DNA of 64,000 bases from Armatimonadota bacterium (lineage in GTDB: Bacteria > Armatimonadota > SYMT01), in contig JAWLHY010000006.1 in assembly GCA_041690135.1 (NCBI GenBank), positions 294,337 through 358,336 on the forward strand, read 5' to 3'. Numbering within the stretch: position 1 is the stretch's first letter; each line of letters opens with the position of its first letter. The notes beneath the pieces were generated by a model. It was not told the DNA's origin. It made no database searches and saw only the letters and a list, made by a program, of their open reading frames with translations. The translations under genes were made by a program, and so were the position numbers. Below, in pieces: positions 46,817 to 62,049 of this stretch.

Positions 46817-48361
46817 CTACTCGCCCTGCGTTTTGAAGTAGTCCAGCACCCCCAGGGTAAGCGACTGGGCCAACTGCCCGTGGAAGTCCCCCGAGGAGAG
46901 CAGGAGCTCATCGTTCGTGTTGTTGATGTAGGCGATCTCCAGCAGCACGCTCGGCATGGTGGTCTCGCGGATCACAGCGAAGCTGCGGTTCCGGATTCCG
47001 CCGTCCCGCCGGCCCACCGTCGCTACCAGGCGCCGGTGCATCGCCACGGCCAACCGGTAGCTCTGCGGAGTGCGCCAGTACGTCTCGCTGCCGTTCGCCG
47101 AGTTGCGGCGGGGCGTGGAGTTGCAGTGGATGCTGATGAAGATATCCGCGTTGCGGGAGTTCGCGAATTTGCAGCGGTCGTCGAGGCTTACGAACACATC
47201 CGAGGTCCGCGTCATGAGCACCGTGGCCCCGCGGGCCTCCAGCGCCTGCTGGAACTGGAGAGCCATCTTGAGACAGAGGTCCTTCTCCAGGTGGTTGAGA
47301 CCCTTGGCCCCCGAATGGCGGCCACCGTGCCCCGCGTCGACACAAATGACCTTGCCCGCCAGGGTGCCGTCCACCACACTGGGAAGATCGATGCGCGGCA
47401 GGATCTCGATAGGCCCCTGCGGAAACGGCACGGGCACCGAGCCGTCCAGCCCGCCCGGCAGGACGCTGCTGCGTGAGGCCGTGCGTAGCGCCTGCGCGCG
47501 CCGGGTCCGGATGGCCGCCAGGAGACGGTCGGCCTCGGGCTCCACTTCCGCCTGACGCACCTGCGCACCACTTCCTACCGCCGCGACGATTTCCTGCGAA
47601 GTCACCTTCACCTGGGTCAGCCTTACGGCGCCGGAAGTCACCGCCAGCACCAGGCGGGCCGTCGTGGGGGTGAACTGCCCCGTCCGCGCCTCTTTCACTG
47701 TGCCCAATCCCGCTGGGACCTGCACTCCGGGAGCCCACTTCGCATTTTCGAAGTCGAGCACGATTCGATCGGGCTTGGTCAACGTCAACCAGGTCGGCGT
47801 GACAGGCAGGGCTGCCATCACCCGCACCACGATCCGGCCGCCTTCCTGCTCCAGGGAGACCCCGGTCAACTGCGTAAGTGGCGGCGCTTCGACATCCGCT
47901 CCAGCGACGGCCTTCTGCTTCTCCGGGTCGGGAACCAGGGCCATCAGGTTATTGCCCTTGTCCCACCGGATATCCAGGCCCAGCATCTGCGCGAGCCGCT
48001 TGACCGGCACGAAGCTGTTGCCGCCCATGACCAGCACGCAGGGGTGCTCGCCCGTCTCGGGGACGTCATCCCGGGAGGTGACGATCGGCCACTCCGCGAT
48101 CTTCTGCCCACCGCGATAGAAGAGGTAGTCGTCGCCCTTGCGCTGCGCCACGATTCCCAGCCGCTTCAACCCCGGGAGGATGGGTGCGTACAACTCCGGC
48201 TCATCCGCATGCCCATAGGTCATGTAGAAACGCGGAGCGCCTCCGGGAAGCGCGAGCCGGGTTCCGCTCGCCCCGATCTCCGCTTGCACCTGGGGGGCGA
48301 GGCCGACCAAGGCCAGAGCGAGACCGGCAAGAAACAGTGGGGGGATTACTCGGCGACGCAT
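46817..48361 (-). CDS. N-acetylmuramoyl-L-alanine amidase (AMIN + Amidase_3)
   Basis: PDRIVLDF (AMIN), VDAGHGG..GA, EKD, FISIHCNS and PSVLLEIAYINN motifs with a signal peptide. Confidence 0.93.
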   Translation of the reverse strand: MRRRVIPPLFLAGLALALVGLAPQVQAEIGASGTRLALPGGAPRFYMTYGHADEPELYAPILPGLKRLGIVAQRKGDDYLFYRGGQKIAEWPIVTSRDDVPETGEHPCVLVMGGNSFVPVKRLAQMLGLDIRWDKGNNLMALVPDPEKQKAVAGADVEAPPLTQLTGVSLEQEGGRIVVRVMAALPVTPTWLTLTKPDRIVLDFENAKWAPGVQVPAGLGTVKEARTGQFTPTTARLVLAVTSGAVRLTQVKVTSQEIVAAVGSGAQVRQAEVEPEADRLLAAIRTRRAQALRTASRSSVLPGGLDGSVPVPFPQGPIEILPRIDLPSVVDGTLAGKVICVDAGHGGRHSGAKGLNHLEKDLCLKMALQFQQALEARGATVLMTRTSDVFVSLDDRCKFANSRNADIFISIHCNSTPRRNSANGSETYWRTPQSYRLAVAMHRRLVATVGRRDGGIRNRSFAVIRETTMPSVLLEIAYINNTNDELLLSSGDFHGQLAQSLTLGVLDYFKTQGE

Positions 48362-48579
48362 AGGCTTGCTCCTCTCTCACAACCACTCGATCGGACGCCC
48401 GCGCGGGACGACGGCAAGAAGGCGGCTCCGGCACGACGGACCGGAGTACCTCGATTCTCGGCACGGGGTGGACGGCTCTCCAACCGAAGATGCCTTCCCG
48501 GCGCCGGCGAGCAGAAGCCTGCCCGTGCTCCCCCGTTCGGCCTCCCGCCTTCCGAGTCCTCCCTTTGGGGCGGGATGTG

Positions 48580-48939
48580 GGTACGGTTTGGCGGGGTTGG
48601 GGATCTGAGTTGCAAGTTGGAAGGTTGCAAGTTGAAGGTTAGGGACCGTGGGGTTTGCTACCGGTACGGCCCCCCGCGGGGGCTAAAGTTTGGCAGGACA
48701 GGTTCTGCGTGTACAGGTTGGAAGGTGGAAGGTGGGAGGTTGAAGGTTGGGGACCGTGGAGTCCGCTACGGGTGCGGCCCCCCGCGGGGGCTAAAGTTTG
48801 GCAGGACAGGTTCTGTGTTTACAGGTTGGAAGGTGGAAGGTTGGGAACCCCGGGGGTTCCGGGCAAGTGCGGTTTGGCACTACCGGGATCGGAGTTGCAA
48901 ATTGGAAGGTTGGAGGTTGAAGCCCCTCTGAGGCCAGGG
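48580..48939 (+). repeat. Composite repeat: 2x ~108-bp direct repeat with CCCCCCGCGGGGG palindrome and GGTTGGAAG runs
   Basis: Units start at 48643 and 48751 (GGACCGTGG...GGCCCCCCGCGGGGGCTAAAGTTTGGCAGGACAGGTTCTG). Same family as 5923 and 30951. Confidence 0.85.
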
Positions 48940-49046
48940 ATCGAGGCCCGGTTGATTCCGAGGGCCGGGAGATCGGCTGAGGGTACAGGGGTGGACCACT
49001 TGCCACGCAAGTACCGATTGATCTAGCCCGGTTTGCGTGGCGAGAA

Positions 49047-49290
49047 GGAGGTTCCCGGTAAGCGAAACATGTCCTGTCCTTGCACCCGCAAAAGTAGGGC
49101 GGAGGCTCCATCCCCGCCGGGTCTTGGTCTTGCACCCGTAGTGCCGTGTGGCCCCACTTACTACGGCATAGGGGAGCCCGCCAGACCAATGACCCACTCG
49201 GCTGTGTCTTCTTGAACGGAAGCCTGGCCGTATGGCTGAAGGATCCCGTGGCGACCACCGCACTCACGACCCGTCCCGAACACATGTCCG
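49047..49290 (+). mobile_element. Structured non-coding element, copy A (IS110 non-coding end / bridge-RNA-like, no transposase)
   Basis: 49047-49148 is about 78% identical (80/102, ungapped, by hand) to 61637-61738, with covarying stems. The IS110 assignment is from recalled architecture only. Confidence 0.5.
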
Positions 49291-49404
49291 GGTGGTAAAC
49301 CCAGTGGGCGTCGGGACCTCCCTCCGGTAGCTCGCAACCCGGGTGGTCGCGTCCCGCCCTGGCAGGCGCACTCCGGGGATGGATTCGTTCCCCCACGGAC
49401 TACG

Positions 49405-49914
49405 TCACCCGTAGTGCGGCAACCCCTGGAGCTTGTCCAGAAAACCCCGAGGATCCGTTACAAACCGTACGGCGTCTGACTGCTGGATCTCCTGAACGAG
49501 CAGTTCCAGCCGGGGTTCGATCAACATCAGGTCCGAGGTCAACAGGAGACAGTCGCCCTGTGCCGCGATGCGGCACACCGTTTCCGCCAGAGCGGGATTC
49601 CATTGCCGAAGGTCGAAGCGAACGCTGAAGTCCTCAATGGTCCTCGCGCCGTCTCCGCCCTCTTCCTCATATGCCACCTCGACGATGTCCCCATCGTATC
49701 CGCCCCACGCACGGCTGTTCTTCGACCAGTGGTCTTCTATCCGCGGCAGGACCTCGTCCAGGAGGTTCACGACGTCGTCCGACAGGGTGTGACCGCCCCA
49801 CCACTCGGTATCGGACCACCAGGTCTCCTCGTCCAGGCGCAGCGGCACTCCGCCGAGTTGCGCAAGCAGCACCCCGCGCGGAATCAGATGCAAGGAAAAC
49901 TGCCAGATCGCCAT
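49405..49914 (-). CDS. Hypothetical protein (immunity-protein-like)
   Basis: 169-aa acidic, Trp-rich ORF with ATG start and coding-like codon usage. No recognised family. Confidence 0.65.
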   Translation of the reverse strand: MAIWQFSLHLIPRGVLLAQLGGVPLRLDEETWWSDTEWWGGHTLSDDVVNLLDEVLPRIEDHWSKNSRAWGGYDGDIVEVAYEEEGGDGARTIEDFSVRFDLRQWNPALAETVCRIAAQGDCLLLTSDLMLIEPRLELLVQEIQQSDAVRFVTDPRGFLDKLQGLPHYG

Positions 49915-50135
49915 ACTTACCGTCCCGCCCGACCGATCATCAACGTCAGGGCGCCGTAGAGATGGGAGTTGGACCCCCTTGCCCTAAGCACAAAATCCAC
50001 ACAATACACAAAATCCCGGTTGCTTGTTACACAAAACCACACATAATTCGGCCAAGTCGCGCGTCATCCACGGCATCGACGCGAGCCGGCGCTACTTCAC
50101 CCCACACGGATTGGCTTTCTTCTCCAGCAAACCGG

Positions 50136-50354
50136 CTAACGCTCCCCACCAGCCAACTTTTGTTCCGCCTCCGCCAGGGCTTCTTTCAACTCCGCGAGAT
50201 CGCAAGTAGGCGGCGTCTCCGCTGATTTCGGGTAGACGGTGAGCACCAGACCCCCTTCGGCGCGCCTTCGAACGTCGCCCCAGTGGGTCCCGCCGTTCCA
50301 GATTTCCGCGACCGCCGTTTCCTCATCCACGCCCAGGAATACCGTGACTTCCAT
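50136..50354 (-). CDS. Small hypothetical protein (72 aa)
   Basis: GGAGGGG RBS before ATG and beta-beta-beta-alpha pattern (VAEIWNGGTHWGDV...LAELKEALAEAEQKL). Confidence 0.65.
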   Translation of the reverse strand: MEVTVFLGVDEETAVAEIWNGGTHWGDVRRRAEGGLVLTVYPKSAETPPTCDLAELKEALAEAEQKLAGGER

Positions 50355-60798: not shown

Positions 60799-61578
60799 AT
60801 GCAGCAGAGACTGGAAAACGAGAACCTGGAGAGCAGCGGCTACACGCCGGAGGAGTACCGGGAAGTCGTGCGCCGGGCGCAAAAGATCCGGGCGGAGCAA
60901 GAGGGAAGGCTCACCCACGAGCAGTTGGCGGAGAGCGCCGCGGAGGTCGGCATCCGGGAGGAGGACCTCCGCGAGGCCGCCCGGCAACTGCGCGAGGAGA
61001 AACGGCAGCAGGAGTTAGCGCAGCGGGAGCAGGTCGAACGCCGGAAGAAGCAGGGCCTCATTTCCGCCGCCGTCGCCGGGTTCCTCGGCCTTTCCATGCT
61101 CTTTACGTACAACGGACTGAACGCCGAGTACCACGACGCCCGCCAGGCCCGTGCCAACCTCCAGAGCGCCCTGCAGCGGCGCGCGGACGTGGTTCCCCAG
61201 ATCGCCCGCGCCGTCCGCGAAGGAGCCGCCCAGGAGAAGGCGCTGGTCGACCGCCTCACCCAGGCCCAGAATAAGCTGCAGTCCGGAGATGTGGCCGCGC
61301 AGATGGAGGCCAGCCGGGAGCTAAGCGAGATCGGTTCGCAGGTCGGCAGCAATCCGCAGCTTCGCGGTTCATCGCTCTATCAGGACCTCACGGCGAGCCT
61401 GGAAGGCAGCGAGAACCGCATCAACGTGGCCCGCTCCCGCTACAACGAGCAGGCCGCCGAGTACAACGAGGCCGTTTCCGGTTTCCCCGGCAGCCTGGTG
61501 CGGCCCCTCACCGGCCTGCCCGCGGAAGTGCCTCTCTTCGAGGCCTCGGCCGAAGCCACCGCTCCACCCAAGCTCTAA
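60799..61578 (+). CDS. LemA family protein with N-terminal helical extension
   Basis: YNGL...LQRRADVVP and NPQLRGS..YQDL..SLEGSENRINVARSRYNEQA..YN....FP motifs. Confidence 0.88.
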   Translation: MQQRLENENLESSGYTPEEYREVVRRAQKIRAEQEGRLTHEQLAESAAEVGIREEDLREAARQLREEKRQQELAQREQVERRKKQGLISAAVAGFLGLSMLFTYNGLNAEYHDARQARANLQSALQRRADVVPQIARAVREGAAQEKALVDRLTQAQNKLQSGDVAAQMEASRELSEIGSQVGSNPQLRGSSLYQDLTASLEGSENRINVARSRYNEQAAEYNEAVSGFPGSLVRPLTGLPAEVPLFEASAEATAPPKL

Positions 61579-61596
61579 CGGGACAACTCGCCGCGC

Positions 61597-61912
61597 ATGT
61601 TCCGCTTACCAGGAGTCCACTCGGCACAGCGGCAGGGGAGGCTCCTGGTAAGCGGGACGTATTCTGTCCTTGCACCCGCAAAAGCAGGGCGGAATCTCCG
61701 TGCCCGCCTGGCTCTGGCCTTGTACTGGTGCTGCCGTGAGGGACGCCACTGGCGCCGATGAAGGCGAACCCGGCAGGCAACTGCGAGCCAGGGCTGGGCA
61801 CTCACGGACTGCCAAACAAGGGGTTGCACTGCGGAGCAAGGGGGCTCTTGTCGTCGCGGGTCACCGGGATCGCCAGTTCCGGATGCAAGTCGGGAGCGGC
61901 GCAGTGCAACCC
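61597..61912 (+). mobile_element. Structured non-coding element, copy B (IS110 bridge-RNA-like, no transposase)
   Basis: Homologous to 49047-49148. Long stems TCCGCTTACCAGGAGTC/GGCTCCTGGTAAGCGGG and GGGTTGCACTGCG/CGCAGTGCAACCC. Confidence 0.5.
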
Positions 61913-61997: not shown

Positions 61998-62049
61998 CAC
62001 CCGAACACCCGAACACCCGAACACCCGAACACCCGAACACCCGAACACC
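61998..62049 (+). repeat. 8-bp tandem repeat (CACCCGAA)x6
   Basis: Six perfect copies read directly from the sequence. Confidence 0.95.

What the first reader, a model, noticed from the sequence alone, without database searches (positions are those of the whole stretch)
49047..49290. Transposase-less structured element resembling an IS110 bridge-RNA end (copy A)
Seen: 49047-49148 aligns without gaps to 61637-61738 at about 78%. Hairpin CTGTCCT-TGCACCCGCAAAAG(T/C)-AGGGCGG is kept in both. A second stem covaries (CCGTAGT/ACTACGG versus TGGTGCT/GGCGCCG), flanked by variable N7-CT-TG(C/T)AC on the 5' side and NNN-AG on the 3' side. Known: IS110 bridge-RNA loops have guide-CT-TG...stem...guide-AG architecture, and IS621 targets REPs. 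This copy lies about 110 bp from a palindromic repeat cluster. No recombinase ORF is adjacent, so it may be a relic, a non-autonomous element or a trans-acting guide RNA with a different specificity per copy (inference).
Basis: partly seen in the sequence, partly recalled or inferred. Interest (0 to 1): 0.7.

Follow-up and report, generated by a model that had tools for sequence, protein, structure and literature searches.

The report
Old transposase-less repeat after stop codons
The two look-alike stretches are members of a family of more than a hundred copies of a roughly 215-base mobile-element relic with inverted-repeat ends that often sits directly behind the stop codon of a gene; it is not linked to an IS110 bridge RNA.

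Summary
But these are not two copies. They are two of about 125 copies in this 9.1 Mb genome (nhmmer), or 109 by a covariance model of the core.

The full unit is about 215 nt: copy A about 48988-49200, copy B about 61579-61792. It has imperfect 13-17-nt terminal inverted repeats, and each is bordered by C-T-R-G.

No IS110 recombinase domain occurs anywhere in the genome, and no Rfam family matches.

Of the 125 copies, 108 are intergenic, mostly at gene 3' ends. In 22 of 50 copies with an intact 5' end, a stop triplet abuts the element. Sixteen close long ORFs of unrelated genes. None of 46 intact 3' ends does so.

Only one hairpin (H3) shows clear compensatory change.

Best reading: an old, lineage-specific, non-autonomous DNA transposon (MITE), probably targeting TA within CTAG. 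It was kept where it rebuilt a stop codon and is read in sense.

It is a new member of a known kind and of modest interest. The strand bias and the well-kept core remain unexplained.

The parts
48988..49200 (+). Copy A, whole element (about 213 nt) including the C-T-R-G-type tetranucleotide positions at both ends
   Evidence: nhmmer hit C6:343317-343542, model 5-234. Boundaries come from the 38-copy alignment with flanks and the end matrices. Window = C6:294337-358336.
48992..49004 (+). Copy A, 5' terminal inverted repeat
   Evidence: Sequence. The end-to-end complementarity is 59.7% of cells against 31-41% when slid.
48998..49012 (+). Copy A, 5'-proximal hairpin (6-bp stem, 3-nt loop), called Pa
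   Evidence: Sequence. In the family, 57-70% of cells pair in the five central pairs, against 23-35% when slid. The copy-specific test is weak (z -1.46, 21 of 300).
49068..49156 (+). Copy A, conserved core (module 1, hairpin H3, module 2)
   Evidence: Covariance model R1 match at 81.7 bits. The core is the best-kept part of the element.
49071..49088 (+). Internal direct repeat, first arm.
   Evidence: the repeat finder family D4: 18 nt, 83% identical to 49121-49138.
49121..49138 (+). Internal direct repeat, second arm
49074..49102 (+). Its 3' arm overlaps H3.
   Evidence: In the family it is 84.2% paired with no compensatory change beyond shuffles.
49098..49118 (+). Hairpin H3, the G+C-rich central hairpin and the only helix with clear compensatory change
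   Evidence: RNAalifold. On 55 distinct copies it is 87.2% paired, against 33-64% when slid. One pair is GC in 33 copies and AU in 15, and 0 of 500 shuffles reach the observed values. The alignment-free test gives z -4.5. The minus strand reads as terminator-like.
49136..49166 (+).
   Evidence: The family test is marginal.
49184..49196 (+). Copy A, 3' terminal inverted repeat
61579..61792 (+). Copy B, whole element
   Evidence: nhmmer hit C6:355912-356120, model 12-220. Sequence. The R1 core match is at 61658-61748.
60799..61578 (+). LemA-family gene. Its TAA stop codon (61576-61578) lies directly before copy B.
   Evidence: Pfam LemA, E 1.8e-26, reaching residue 258 of 259. Junction shown (one base from the projected element start).

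Best explanation
[quoted passage not shown] This is a non-coding DNA transposon of about 215 bp that carries no transposase gene of its own.

Shown:
- There are more than 100 dispersed copies.
- The element has 13-17-nt imperfect terminal inverted repeats, each bordered by C-T-R-G.
- Copies are nearly all intergenic and avoid divergent (promoter) spacers.
- Copies are old: median pairwise identity is 57% over full copies.
- No partner transposase is recognisable.

Inferred:
- The element was moved in trans by a cut-and-paste DDE transposase that inserts at TA inside CTAG, as IS630 does, or that duplicates CTAG, as IS5-type elements do.
- CTAG is eight-fold depleted in this 65% G+C genome, and about one tolerated CTAG in six is an amber stop codon preceded by C. 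Many insertions therefore landed exactly on stop codons. The duplicated TA plus the element's first G rebuilt a stop there, so those insertions were harmless and survived.
- The outer CTAG then drifted to CTGG or CCAG, except where it serves as a stop. There it was held as TAG, TAA or TGA.
- Copies are co-transcribed with the upstream gene. Selection on that 3' untranslated region is the likeliest cause of two features: the sense-strand bias, and the roughly 100-nt core being better kept than the ends.
For: Copy number:
- 43 BLAST matches.
- 126 and 125 nhmmer hits.
- 109 matches to covariance model R1.

Ends:
- Both end matrices read C-T-R-G followed by the same 10-13 nt in inverted orientation (n = 50 and n = 47).
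- The commonest tetranucleotide is CTAG at the 5' end (7 of 50), and CTGG (11 of 47) on the reverse complement of the 3' end.
- End-to-end complementarity is 59.7% against 31-41% for slid controls. Mismatches split G-U 35 against A-C 44, and there is no copy-specific compensation (z +0.9). This is what a DNA inverted repeat gives, not an RNA helix.

Placement:
- 108 of 125 copies are intergenic: 47 in convergent spacers, 51 in tandem spacers, and only 10 in divergent spacers.

Stop codons:
- 22 of 50 intact 5' ends have a stop triplet flush with the element, and 2 more are one base away.
- 16 of these close ORFs of 114-714 codons.
- 14 of the 18 upstream proteins tested carry unrelated Pfam families that run to within a few residues of the C-terminus.
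- The gamma-glutamyltranspeptidase (GGT) gene stops at exactly the same residue as its orthologues in two related genera.

CTAG:
- 3531 CTAG seen against 29385 expected.
- 376 lie at called stop codons and 1800 are intergenic.

Literature:
- IS630-family elements insert at TA with a 2-bp duplication. A paper title in a reference list gives the preference for TA within 5'-CTAG-3' (PMC2170065, passages and reference list).

Age:
- Median pairwise identity is 0.57 over 23 full copies.
Against: - No autonomous element with these ends was found. None of the 4 DDE_3, 3 DDE_Tnp_1 or 9 Y1_Tnp loci has matching termini. Pairs of end motifs 0.35-6 kb apart are at chance level.
- A target-site duplication is not demonstrated. 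C-T-R-G could simply be part of the inverted repeat.
- No related genome carries the family. It was absent from 40 relatives by BLAST, from 6 same-family genomes by covariance model, and from two pattern scans. The 12 hits of a looser pattern were chance, with no nhmmer match. No empty site could therefore be examined.
- A palindromic target and symmetric ends predict both orientations at stop codons. The data show 16 at the 5' end and 0 of 46 at the 3' end (Fisher p 8.9e-6).
- In the same 23 full copies the ends are the worst-kept part (pairwise identity 0.47-0.53) and the core the best (0.67-0.73). That is the reverse of a typical MITE.
- The second orthologue comparison (prolyl oligopeptidase) is ambiguous. 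Our protein is 7-17 residues shorter than its orthologues.
- The gene calls come from my own crude ORF and GC3 caller, which covers 74.5% of the genome.
Confidence: 0.6

Rival explanations
1. An exapted 3'-UTR RNA module. Whatever spread it, the roughly 100-nt core (two direct repeats around hairpin H3) now works in the sense transcript just behind the stop codon of about a hundred unrelated genes. It could act as a 3'-end stabiliser or terminator, or as a shared binding site for one protein or small RNA. This overlaps with the best explanation rather than excluding it.
For: - Sense bias in tandem spacers: 36 against 15 (p 0.0046).
- Stop-codon contact only at the 5' end: 16 of 50 against 0 of 46.
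- The core is better conserved than the ends in the same copies: 0.67-0.73 against 0.47-0.53.
- H3 is kept in 87% of cells, with a GC/AU swap (33 against 15).
- Stem 2 shows copy-specific complementarity (z -2.46, 4 of 300).
- Published precedent: ERIC, Correia and SMAG repeats are co-transcribed at gene 3' ends and alter mRNA stability (PMC3184786, passages).
Against: - RNAalifold finds almost no shared fold: -9.2 kcal/mol over 251 columns, 10 pairs.
- Single-copy folds are not better than shuffles: z -1.1 and +0.3.
- The covariation in H3 is essentially one or two subfamily events.
- There is no U-tract after H3 on the sense strand. The terminator-like tail is on the other strand.
- 15 tandem-spacer copies are antisense and 10 copies lie in divergent spacers.
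- No expression data could be had.
Confidence: 0.2
2. A composite REP/REPIN-like unit moved as single-stranded DNA by a Y1 (HUH, RAYT or IS200-type) transposase.
For: - There are 9 Y1_Tnp matches in the genome.
- TAG-tagged termini supplying stop codons are described for GTAG REPs (PMC3733652).
- Internal hairpins show compensatory change.
- The element strand correlates with local GC skew: 78 against 42, p 0.0013. A strand-specific, replication-linked mechanism would produce this.
Against: - The nearest copy to any Y1 gene is 5.5 kb away.
- No similarity to the element and no REP-like flanks occur within 1.2 kb of the 9 genes.
- The unit is 215 nt with ends in inverted orientation 190 nt apart, whereas REPs are 20-40 nt.
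- The 5' tag is mostly CTAG, not GTAG.
Confidence: 0.12
3. A relic or orphan copy of an IS110-family bridge RNA, or a trans-acting guide RNA with a different specificity per copy.
For: - Two tandem modules each carry a short conserved motif followed by a stem.
- Orphan copies of an IS110-associated small RNA exist in Pseudomonas putida (abstract of PMC12288879, seen only in the listing).
Against: - 0 matches to PF01548 and PF02371 in the whole genome, with controls positive.
- No TnpB-type domain either.
- The element has terminal inverted repeats, more than 100 copies, and a stop-codon location.
- The 'guide' segments are conserved repeat arms.
- No Rfam match.
Confidence: 0.02

Closest known systems
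IS630-family-derived bacterial MITEs, e.g. RUP of Streptococcus pneumoniae (Delihas 2008, PMC2229807, passages read; IS630/ISY100 target data in PMC2170065)
   Same: - Small, non-coding, and present in about 100 intergenic copies.
- Has terminal inverted repeats and carries no transposase.
- Its ends are compatible with insertion at TA, here within CTAG.
   Different: - RUP's inverted repeats match a resident IS630-Spn1. Here no resident IS has matching ends.
- RUP copies are highly similar, whereas these are about 57% identical.
- Here the core is better kept than the ends, and there is a strand bias relative to the upstream gene.
GTAG-tagged REP repeats (Di Nocera, De Gregorio and Rocco 2013, PMC3733652, abstract and passages read)
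   Same: - Lies mostly between convergent and tandem ORFs, downstream of coding regions.
- The terminal TAG often provides the stop codon of the flanking ORF.
   Different: - REPs are 20-40-nt single palindromes tagged GTAG and linked to RAYT genes.
- This unit is 215 nt with inverted ends and is tagged mostly CTAG.
- It has no link to the 9 Y1 genes.
ERIC, Correia (NEMIS) and SMAG repeats acting in mRNA 3' ends (Delihas 2011, PMC3184786, passages read)
   Same: Located at gene 3' ends, with probable co-transcription. In those families the effect on mRNA stability depends on orientation.
   Different: No expression or stability data exist here. There is no sequence similarity, and no Rfam match.
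IS110/IS621 bridge RNA (Durrant et al. 2024, PMC11208160, abstract and passages read)
   Same: Only a loose resemblance: a non-coding stretch of about 200 nt with two tandem stem-containing modules.
   Different: - A bridge RNA lies in the non-coding end of an element that encodes a DEDD recombinase and typically lacks inverted repeats. Its loops pair with the element's own ends and with the target.
- Here there is no recombinase in the genome, the ends are inverted repeats, and there are more than 100 copies.

Membership tests
IS110 bridge RNA | Encoded in the non-coding left or right end of an IS110/IS1111 element, next to a DEDD (RuvC-like) plus Tnp-domain recombinase gene | tested here: not met
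   PF01548: 0 matches. PF02371: 0 matches in the whole 97%-complete genome, with controls positive in 6 of 14 genomes. Neighbours of both window copies are an amidase, LemA, a TPM-domain protein, an MraZ-like protein and unknown ORFs.
IS110 bridge RNA | The host element typically lacks terminal inverted repeats and inserts site-specifically (PMC11208160) | tested here: not met
   Inverted ends of 13-17 nt are seen in the matrices of 50 and 47 copies.
IS110 bridge RNA | Two internal loops whose two sides pair with target DNA and with the element's own ends | not testable with these tools
   There is no donor element to compare against. The supposed guide segments are arms of a conserved 18-nt direct repeat.
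IS110 bridge RNA | Match to a bridge-RNA covariance model | tested here: inconclusive
   No Rfam 15 family matches at gathering score over the whole window, or at E up to 10 around copy A. I did not check whether Rfam 15 holds a bridge-RNA model.
MITE | Short, non-coding, many dispersed copies | tested here: met
   About 215 nt, with 125 nhmmer hits and 109 covariance-model hits. Indels of 1 and 4 nt between copies break any frame. Conservation by codon phase is 0.72, 0.72 and 0.68.
MITE | Terminal inverted repeats | tested here: met
MITE | Target-site duplication | tested here: inconclusive
   Both ends are bordered by C-T-R-G. This fits a TA duplication within CTAG, a 4-bp CTAG duplication, or simply a longer inverted repeat. 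No empty site was available.
MITE | An autonomous IS with the same ends | tested here: not met
   None found in the genome. The family was not found outside it.
REP / REPIN (RAYT-mobilised) | A 20-40-nt palindromic unit with a GTAG or CGTC tag, and a RAYT gene flanked by such units | tested here: not met
   The unit is 215 nt. The tag is CTAG in 7 copies and GTAG in 4 of 50. The 9 Y1_Tnp loci have no such flanks and no nearby copy.

The most novel reading that the evidence does not exclude
The roughly 100-nt core of this repeat is no longer junk. It has become a shared RNA module placed directly behind the stop codon, in the sense strand, of about a hundred unrelated genes. This would give the cell one handle, whether a protein, a small RNA or a ribosome-linked event at termination, on the 3' ends of all those messages. 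It would explain three things together: why only the 5' end of a symmetric element ever touches a stop codon, why sense copies outnumber antisense ones, and why the core is better preserved than the ends that transposition would need.
Probability: 0.2. Interest if true: 0.6.

Novelty: new member of a known kind. Interest (0 to 1): 0.33.

Why it matters
For annotation: about 125 intergenic stretches of this genome can be labelled as one repeat family rather than as candidate guide RNAs, and the bridge-RNA lead can be closed.

For biology: the family is a clean example of how a transposon aimed at a rare palindrome (CTAG) in a G+C-rich genome ends up exactly on amber stop codons and then becomes part of many 3' untranslated regions.

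Two features are not explained by simple decay: the one-sided contact with stop codons, and a core that is better kept than the ends. If they reflect function, the family would be a natural experiment in the birth of a post-transcriptional regulon. Neither feature has been shown to be functional.

Tried and rejected
- **Rfam:** gathering score over the whole window, and E up to 10 on 48900-49300. Nothing but one chance lncRNA hit at E 2.7.
- **BLAST of the full unit** against 40 relatives: 0 matches.
- **Covariance model R1** against 6 same-family genomes: 0 matches.
- **Pattern scans:** Genome contigs 0; metagenome contigs 0. A looser pattern gave 12 single hits in unrelated phyla, none matched by the family HMM, so they are chance.
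- **Earlier notes of this scan, searched by sequence:** nothing.
- **RNA evidence:** no RNA holder was listed for window 47800-50300.
- **Global RNA fold:**
  - Voting over base-pair probabilities of 21-24 copies gave only H3.
  - A column-pair helix scan was swamped by G-U-rich chance helices.
  - A long-range helix (called P4) and a 5'-segment/GGCAGG pairing look complementary in the consensus but show no copy-specific compensation.
- **Autonomous partner:**
  - A motif search at 2 or fewer mismatches was too noisy.
  - Motif pairs 0.35-6 kb apart were at chance level.
  - Flanks of Y1, DDE_3 and DDE_Tnp_1 genes showed no match.
- **Coding reading:** the consensus is open in the frame of the stop codon, but indels of 1 and 4 nt and a flat codon-phase profile speak against it.
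- **Integron attC reading:** considered and dropped. The copies are dispersed and mixed in orientation, and the ends do not resemble the attC core sites as I recall them. This was not tested with a model.
- **DNA alignment to the genome search:** giving it a DNA alignment was not accepted, so I built the covariance model instead.

Full report
**Observation**

The pair is the visible tip of a family.
- A BLAST of 151 nt of copy A against the window's own genome gave 43 matches. That genome is 9.1 Mb in 25 contigs, 65% G+C, 97% complete.
- nhmmer gave 50 hits with the single sequence, then 118 and 126 hits after two rounds of profile building.
- An extended profile gave 125 hits.
- A covariance model of the 92-nt core gave 109 hits.
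- Only two copies lie in the window.

**Anatomy**

The unit is about 215 nt: copy A about 48988-49200, copy B about 61579-61792.

Its two ends are inverted repeats of 13 nt. Position matrices from 50 intact 5' ends and 47 intact 3' ends show that each is preceded on the outside by C-T-R-G. CTAG is the commonest tetranucleotide at the 5' end, and CTGG is commonest on the reverse complement of the 3' end.

Inside the element lie these features:
- A small 5'-proximal hairpin.
- An 18-nt direct repeat in two arms 50 nt apart.
- A G+C-rich hairpin (H3) between the two arms.

Some copies elsewhere carry nested palindromic insertions at two fixed places.

**Is it a structured RNA?**

The evidence is weak.
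- RNAalifold on 23 full copies finds 10 pairs and -9.2 kcal/mol over 251 columns, essentially only H3.
- The two window copies fold no better than shuffles: z -1.1 and +0.3.
- On 55 distinct copies H3 is 87.2% paired, against 33-64% when slid. One pair is GC in 33 copies and AU in 15. None of 500 shuffles reaches the observed values.
- I ran an alignment-free test of duplex energy between the two arms of the same copy against arms taken from different copies:

| Helix | z | Permutations reaching the observed value |
|---|---|---|
| H3 | -4.5 | 0 of 300 |
| Stem 2 | -2.46 | 4 of 300 |
| 5' hairpin | -1.46 | 21 of 300 |
| Terminal pairing | about 0 or positive | not significant |
| Hairpin 1 | about 0 or positive | not significant |
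| Long-range helix P4 | about 0 or positive | not significant |

- In the terminal pairing, G-U cells (35) do not outnumber A-C cells (44). This is what a decaying DNA inverted repeat gives and not what an RNA helix gives.

**IS110 link**

There is none.
- PF01548 and PF02371 have no match in the whole genome, while each hits 6 of 14 control genomes.
- The TnpB-type domain PF07282 is absent too.
- No Rfam family matches.
- According to Durrant et al. 2024 (PMC11208160, abstract and passages), a bridge RNA lies in the non-coding end of an element that encodes the recombinase and typically lacks inverted repeats. Neither condition holds here.

**Genomic placement**

I used a crude ORF and GC3 gene caller of my own (5779 calls, 74.5% of the genome).
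- 108 of 125 copies are intergenic. The other 17 overlaps are mostly over-extended ORF starts.
- Of the 108, 47 lie between convergent genes and only 10 between divergent genes.
- 36 lie in tandem spacers in sense and 15 in tandem spacers in antisense (binomial p 0.0046).

**Stop codons**

This is the striking feature.
- Of 50 copies with an intact 5' end, 22 have TAG, TGA or TAA immediately before the first base of the inverted repeat, and 2 more have it one base away. The genome-wide frequency of such triplets is 1.8% per position.
- Sixteen of these close ORFs of 114-714 codons.
- 14 of the 18 upstream proteins tested carry unrelated Pfam families: enolase-type, MFS, LemA, ParE, VKOR, PIN, histidine kinase, gamma-glutamyltranspeptidase (GGT), phosphoesterase, pentapeptide, CBS, prolyl oligopeptidase, LexA-like and LPG synthase. 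The domain matches run to within a few residues of the C-terminus.
- The GGT gene ends at exactly the residue where its orthologues in two related genera end. The oligopeptidase is 7-17 residues shorter than its orthologues, so that case is ambiguous.
- About eight further copies carry the triplet, mostly TAG, without closing a real ORF. The TAG therefore belongs to the element or its target, not only to the genes.
- At the other end, 0 of 46 intact 3' ends lie within 18 nt of a converging gene's stop (Fisher p 8.9e-6).

**Mechanism proposed**

- The ends read as C-TA-G, then the element, then C-TA-G. This is the footprint expected of an IS630-type insertion into TA within CTAG. IS630-family elements insert at TA with a 2-bp duplication, and a reference title gives the CTAG preference (PMC2170065, passages and reference list). 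It is equally the footprint of a 4-bp CTAG duplication, which I recall as a feature of IS5-type elements.
- CTAG is eight-fold under-represented here: 3531 seen against 29385 expected. CTGG and CCAG are in excess.
- Of the CTAGs outside called coding sequence, 376 of 2176 are stop codons. A CTAG-seeking element would therefore often land on an amber codon.
- The duplication rebuilds a stop there, so such insertions are harmless.
- The outer tetranucleotide then drifts to CTGG or CCAG unless it serves as a stop codon. This fits the difference between the two end matrices.
- That repeat termini supply TAG to flanking ORFs is already described for GTAG REPs (PMC3733652, passage).

**What this does not explain**

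- A palindromic target and symmetric ends should give both orientations at stop codons, yet only the 5' end is found there.
- In the same 23 full copies the ends are the least conserved part (pairwise identity 0.47-0.53) and the core the most conserved (0.67-0.73) (profile).
- Element strand also correlates with the sign of local GC skew (78 against 42, p 0.0013), although genes do not.
- The first two points suggest selection on the sense transcript. ERIC, Correia and SMAG repeats show such effects (PMC3184786, passages). I could not test it.

**Partner and spread**

- No transposase gene in the genome has matching ends. I checked 9 Y1_Tnp, 4 DDE_3 and 3 DDE_Tnp_1 loci.
- End-motif pairs 0.35-6 kb apart are at chance level.
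- The family was not found in any of these searches:
  - 40 relatives by BLAST.
  - 6 same-family genomes by covariance model.
  - Pattern scans of the genome and metagenome collections.
  - A looser pattern, which gave 12 chance hits.
- Median identity between full copies is 57%, so the burst is old.
- One full-text search combining Armatimonadetes/Armatimonadota with MITE, REP and interspersed-repeat terms listed no paper describing such a family in that phylum.

**Verdict**

The family is a new, lineage-specific member of the known class of bacterial MITE-like intergenic repeats, not an IS110 bridge-RNA relic. Its contact with stop codons has a simple target-site explanation with published parallels. 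The strict strand asymmetry and the well-kept core are the only parts that might hide something more.

Noticed in passing
window 48609-48847 (and 48715-48751, 48885-48922): 2.2 copies of a 108-nt tandem repeat containing a G+C palindrome, with G-rich heptad repeats around it, lie between an amidase gene and copy A. The palindrome resembles one of the small insertions nested in other copies of the element.
   Followed up: partly
window 61998-62049: A perfect 8-nt tandem repeat, 6.5 copies, lies just downstream of copy B and next to an MraZ-like ORF.
   Followed up: no
G000 genome-wide, e.g. C12:192396-192633, C4:194931-195194, C14:186624-186856: Some copies of the element carry nested palindromic insertions of about 20-45 nt at two fixed places, just before H3 and inside its loop. 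A 12-nt word from one of them occurs 36 times in the genome. This looks like a second small repeat family.
   Followed up: partly
G000 genome-wide: CTAG is eight-fold under-represented (3531 seen, 29385 expected), while CTGG and CCAG are in excess. From memory, this is the pattern ascribed to very-short-patch repair in E. coli.
   Followed up: partly
G000 genome-wide: Element strand correlates with the sign of local GC skew (78 against 42, p 0.0013), while gene strand does not (337/330 and 234/228). This is unexplained.
   Followed up: no
window 49098-49118, minus strand: On the minus strand, hairpin H3 of copy A is followed by a T-rich tail and scores as terminator-like. It could stop transcription coming from the converging side.
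   Followed up: no
G000: C11:209659-210000, C1:627841-628185, C2:54557-54895 and six weaker loci: There are nine Y1_Tnp (IS200/RAYT-like) matches, three of them strong, none next to a copy of the element. The genome also has 4 DDE_3 and 3 DDE_Tnp_1 matches, but no IS110 or TnpB.
   Followed up: partly
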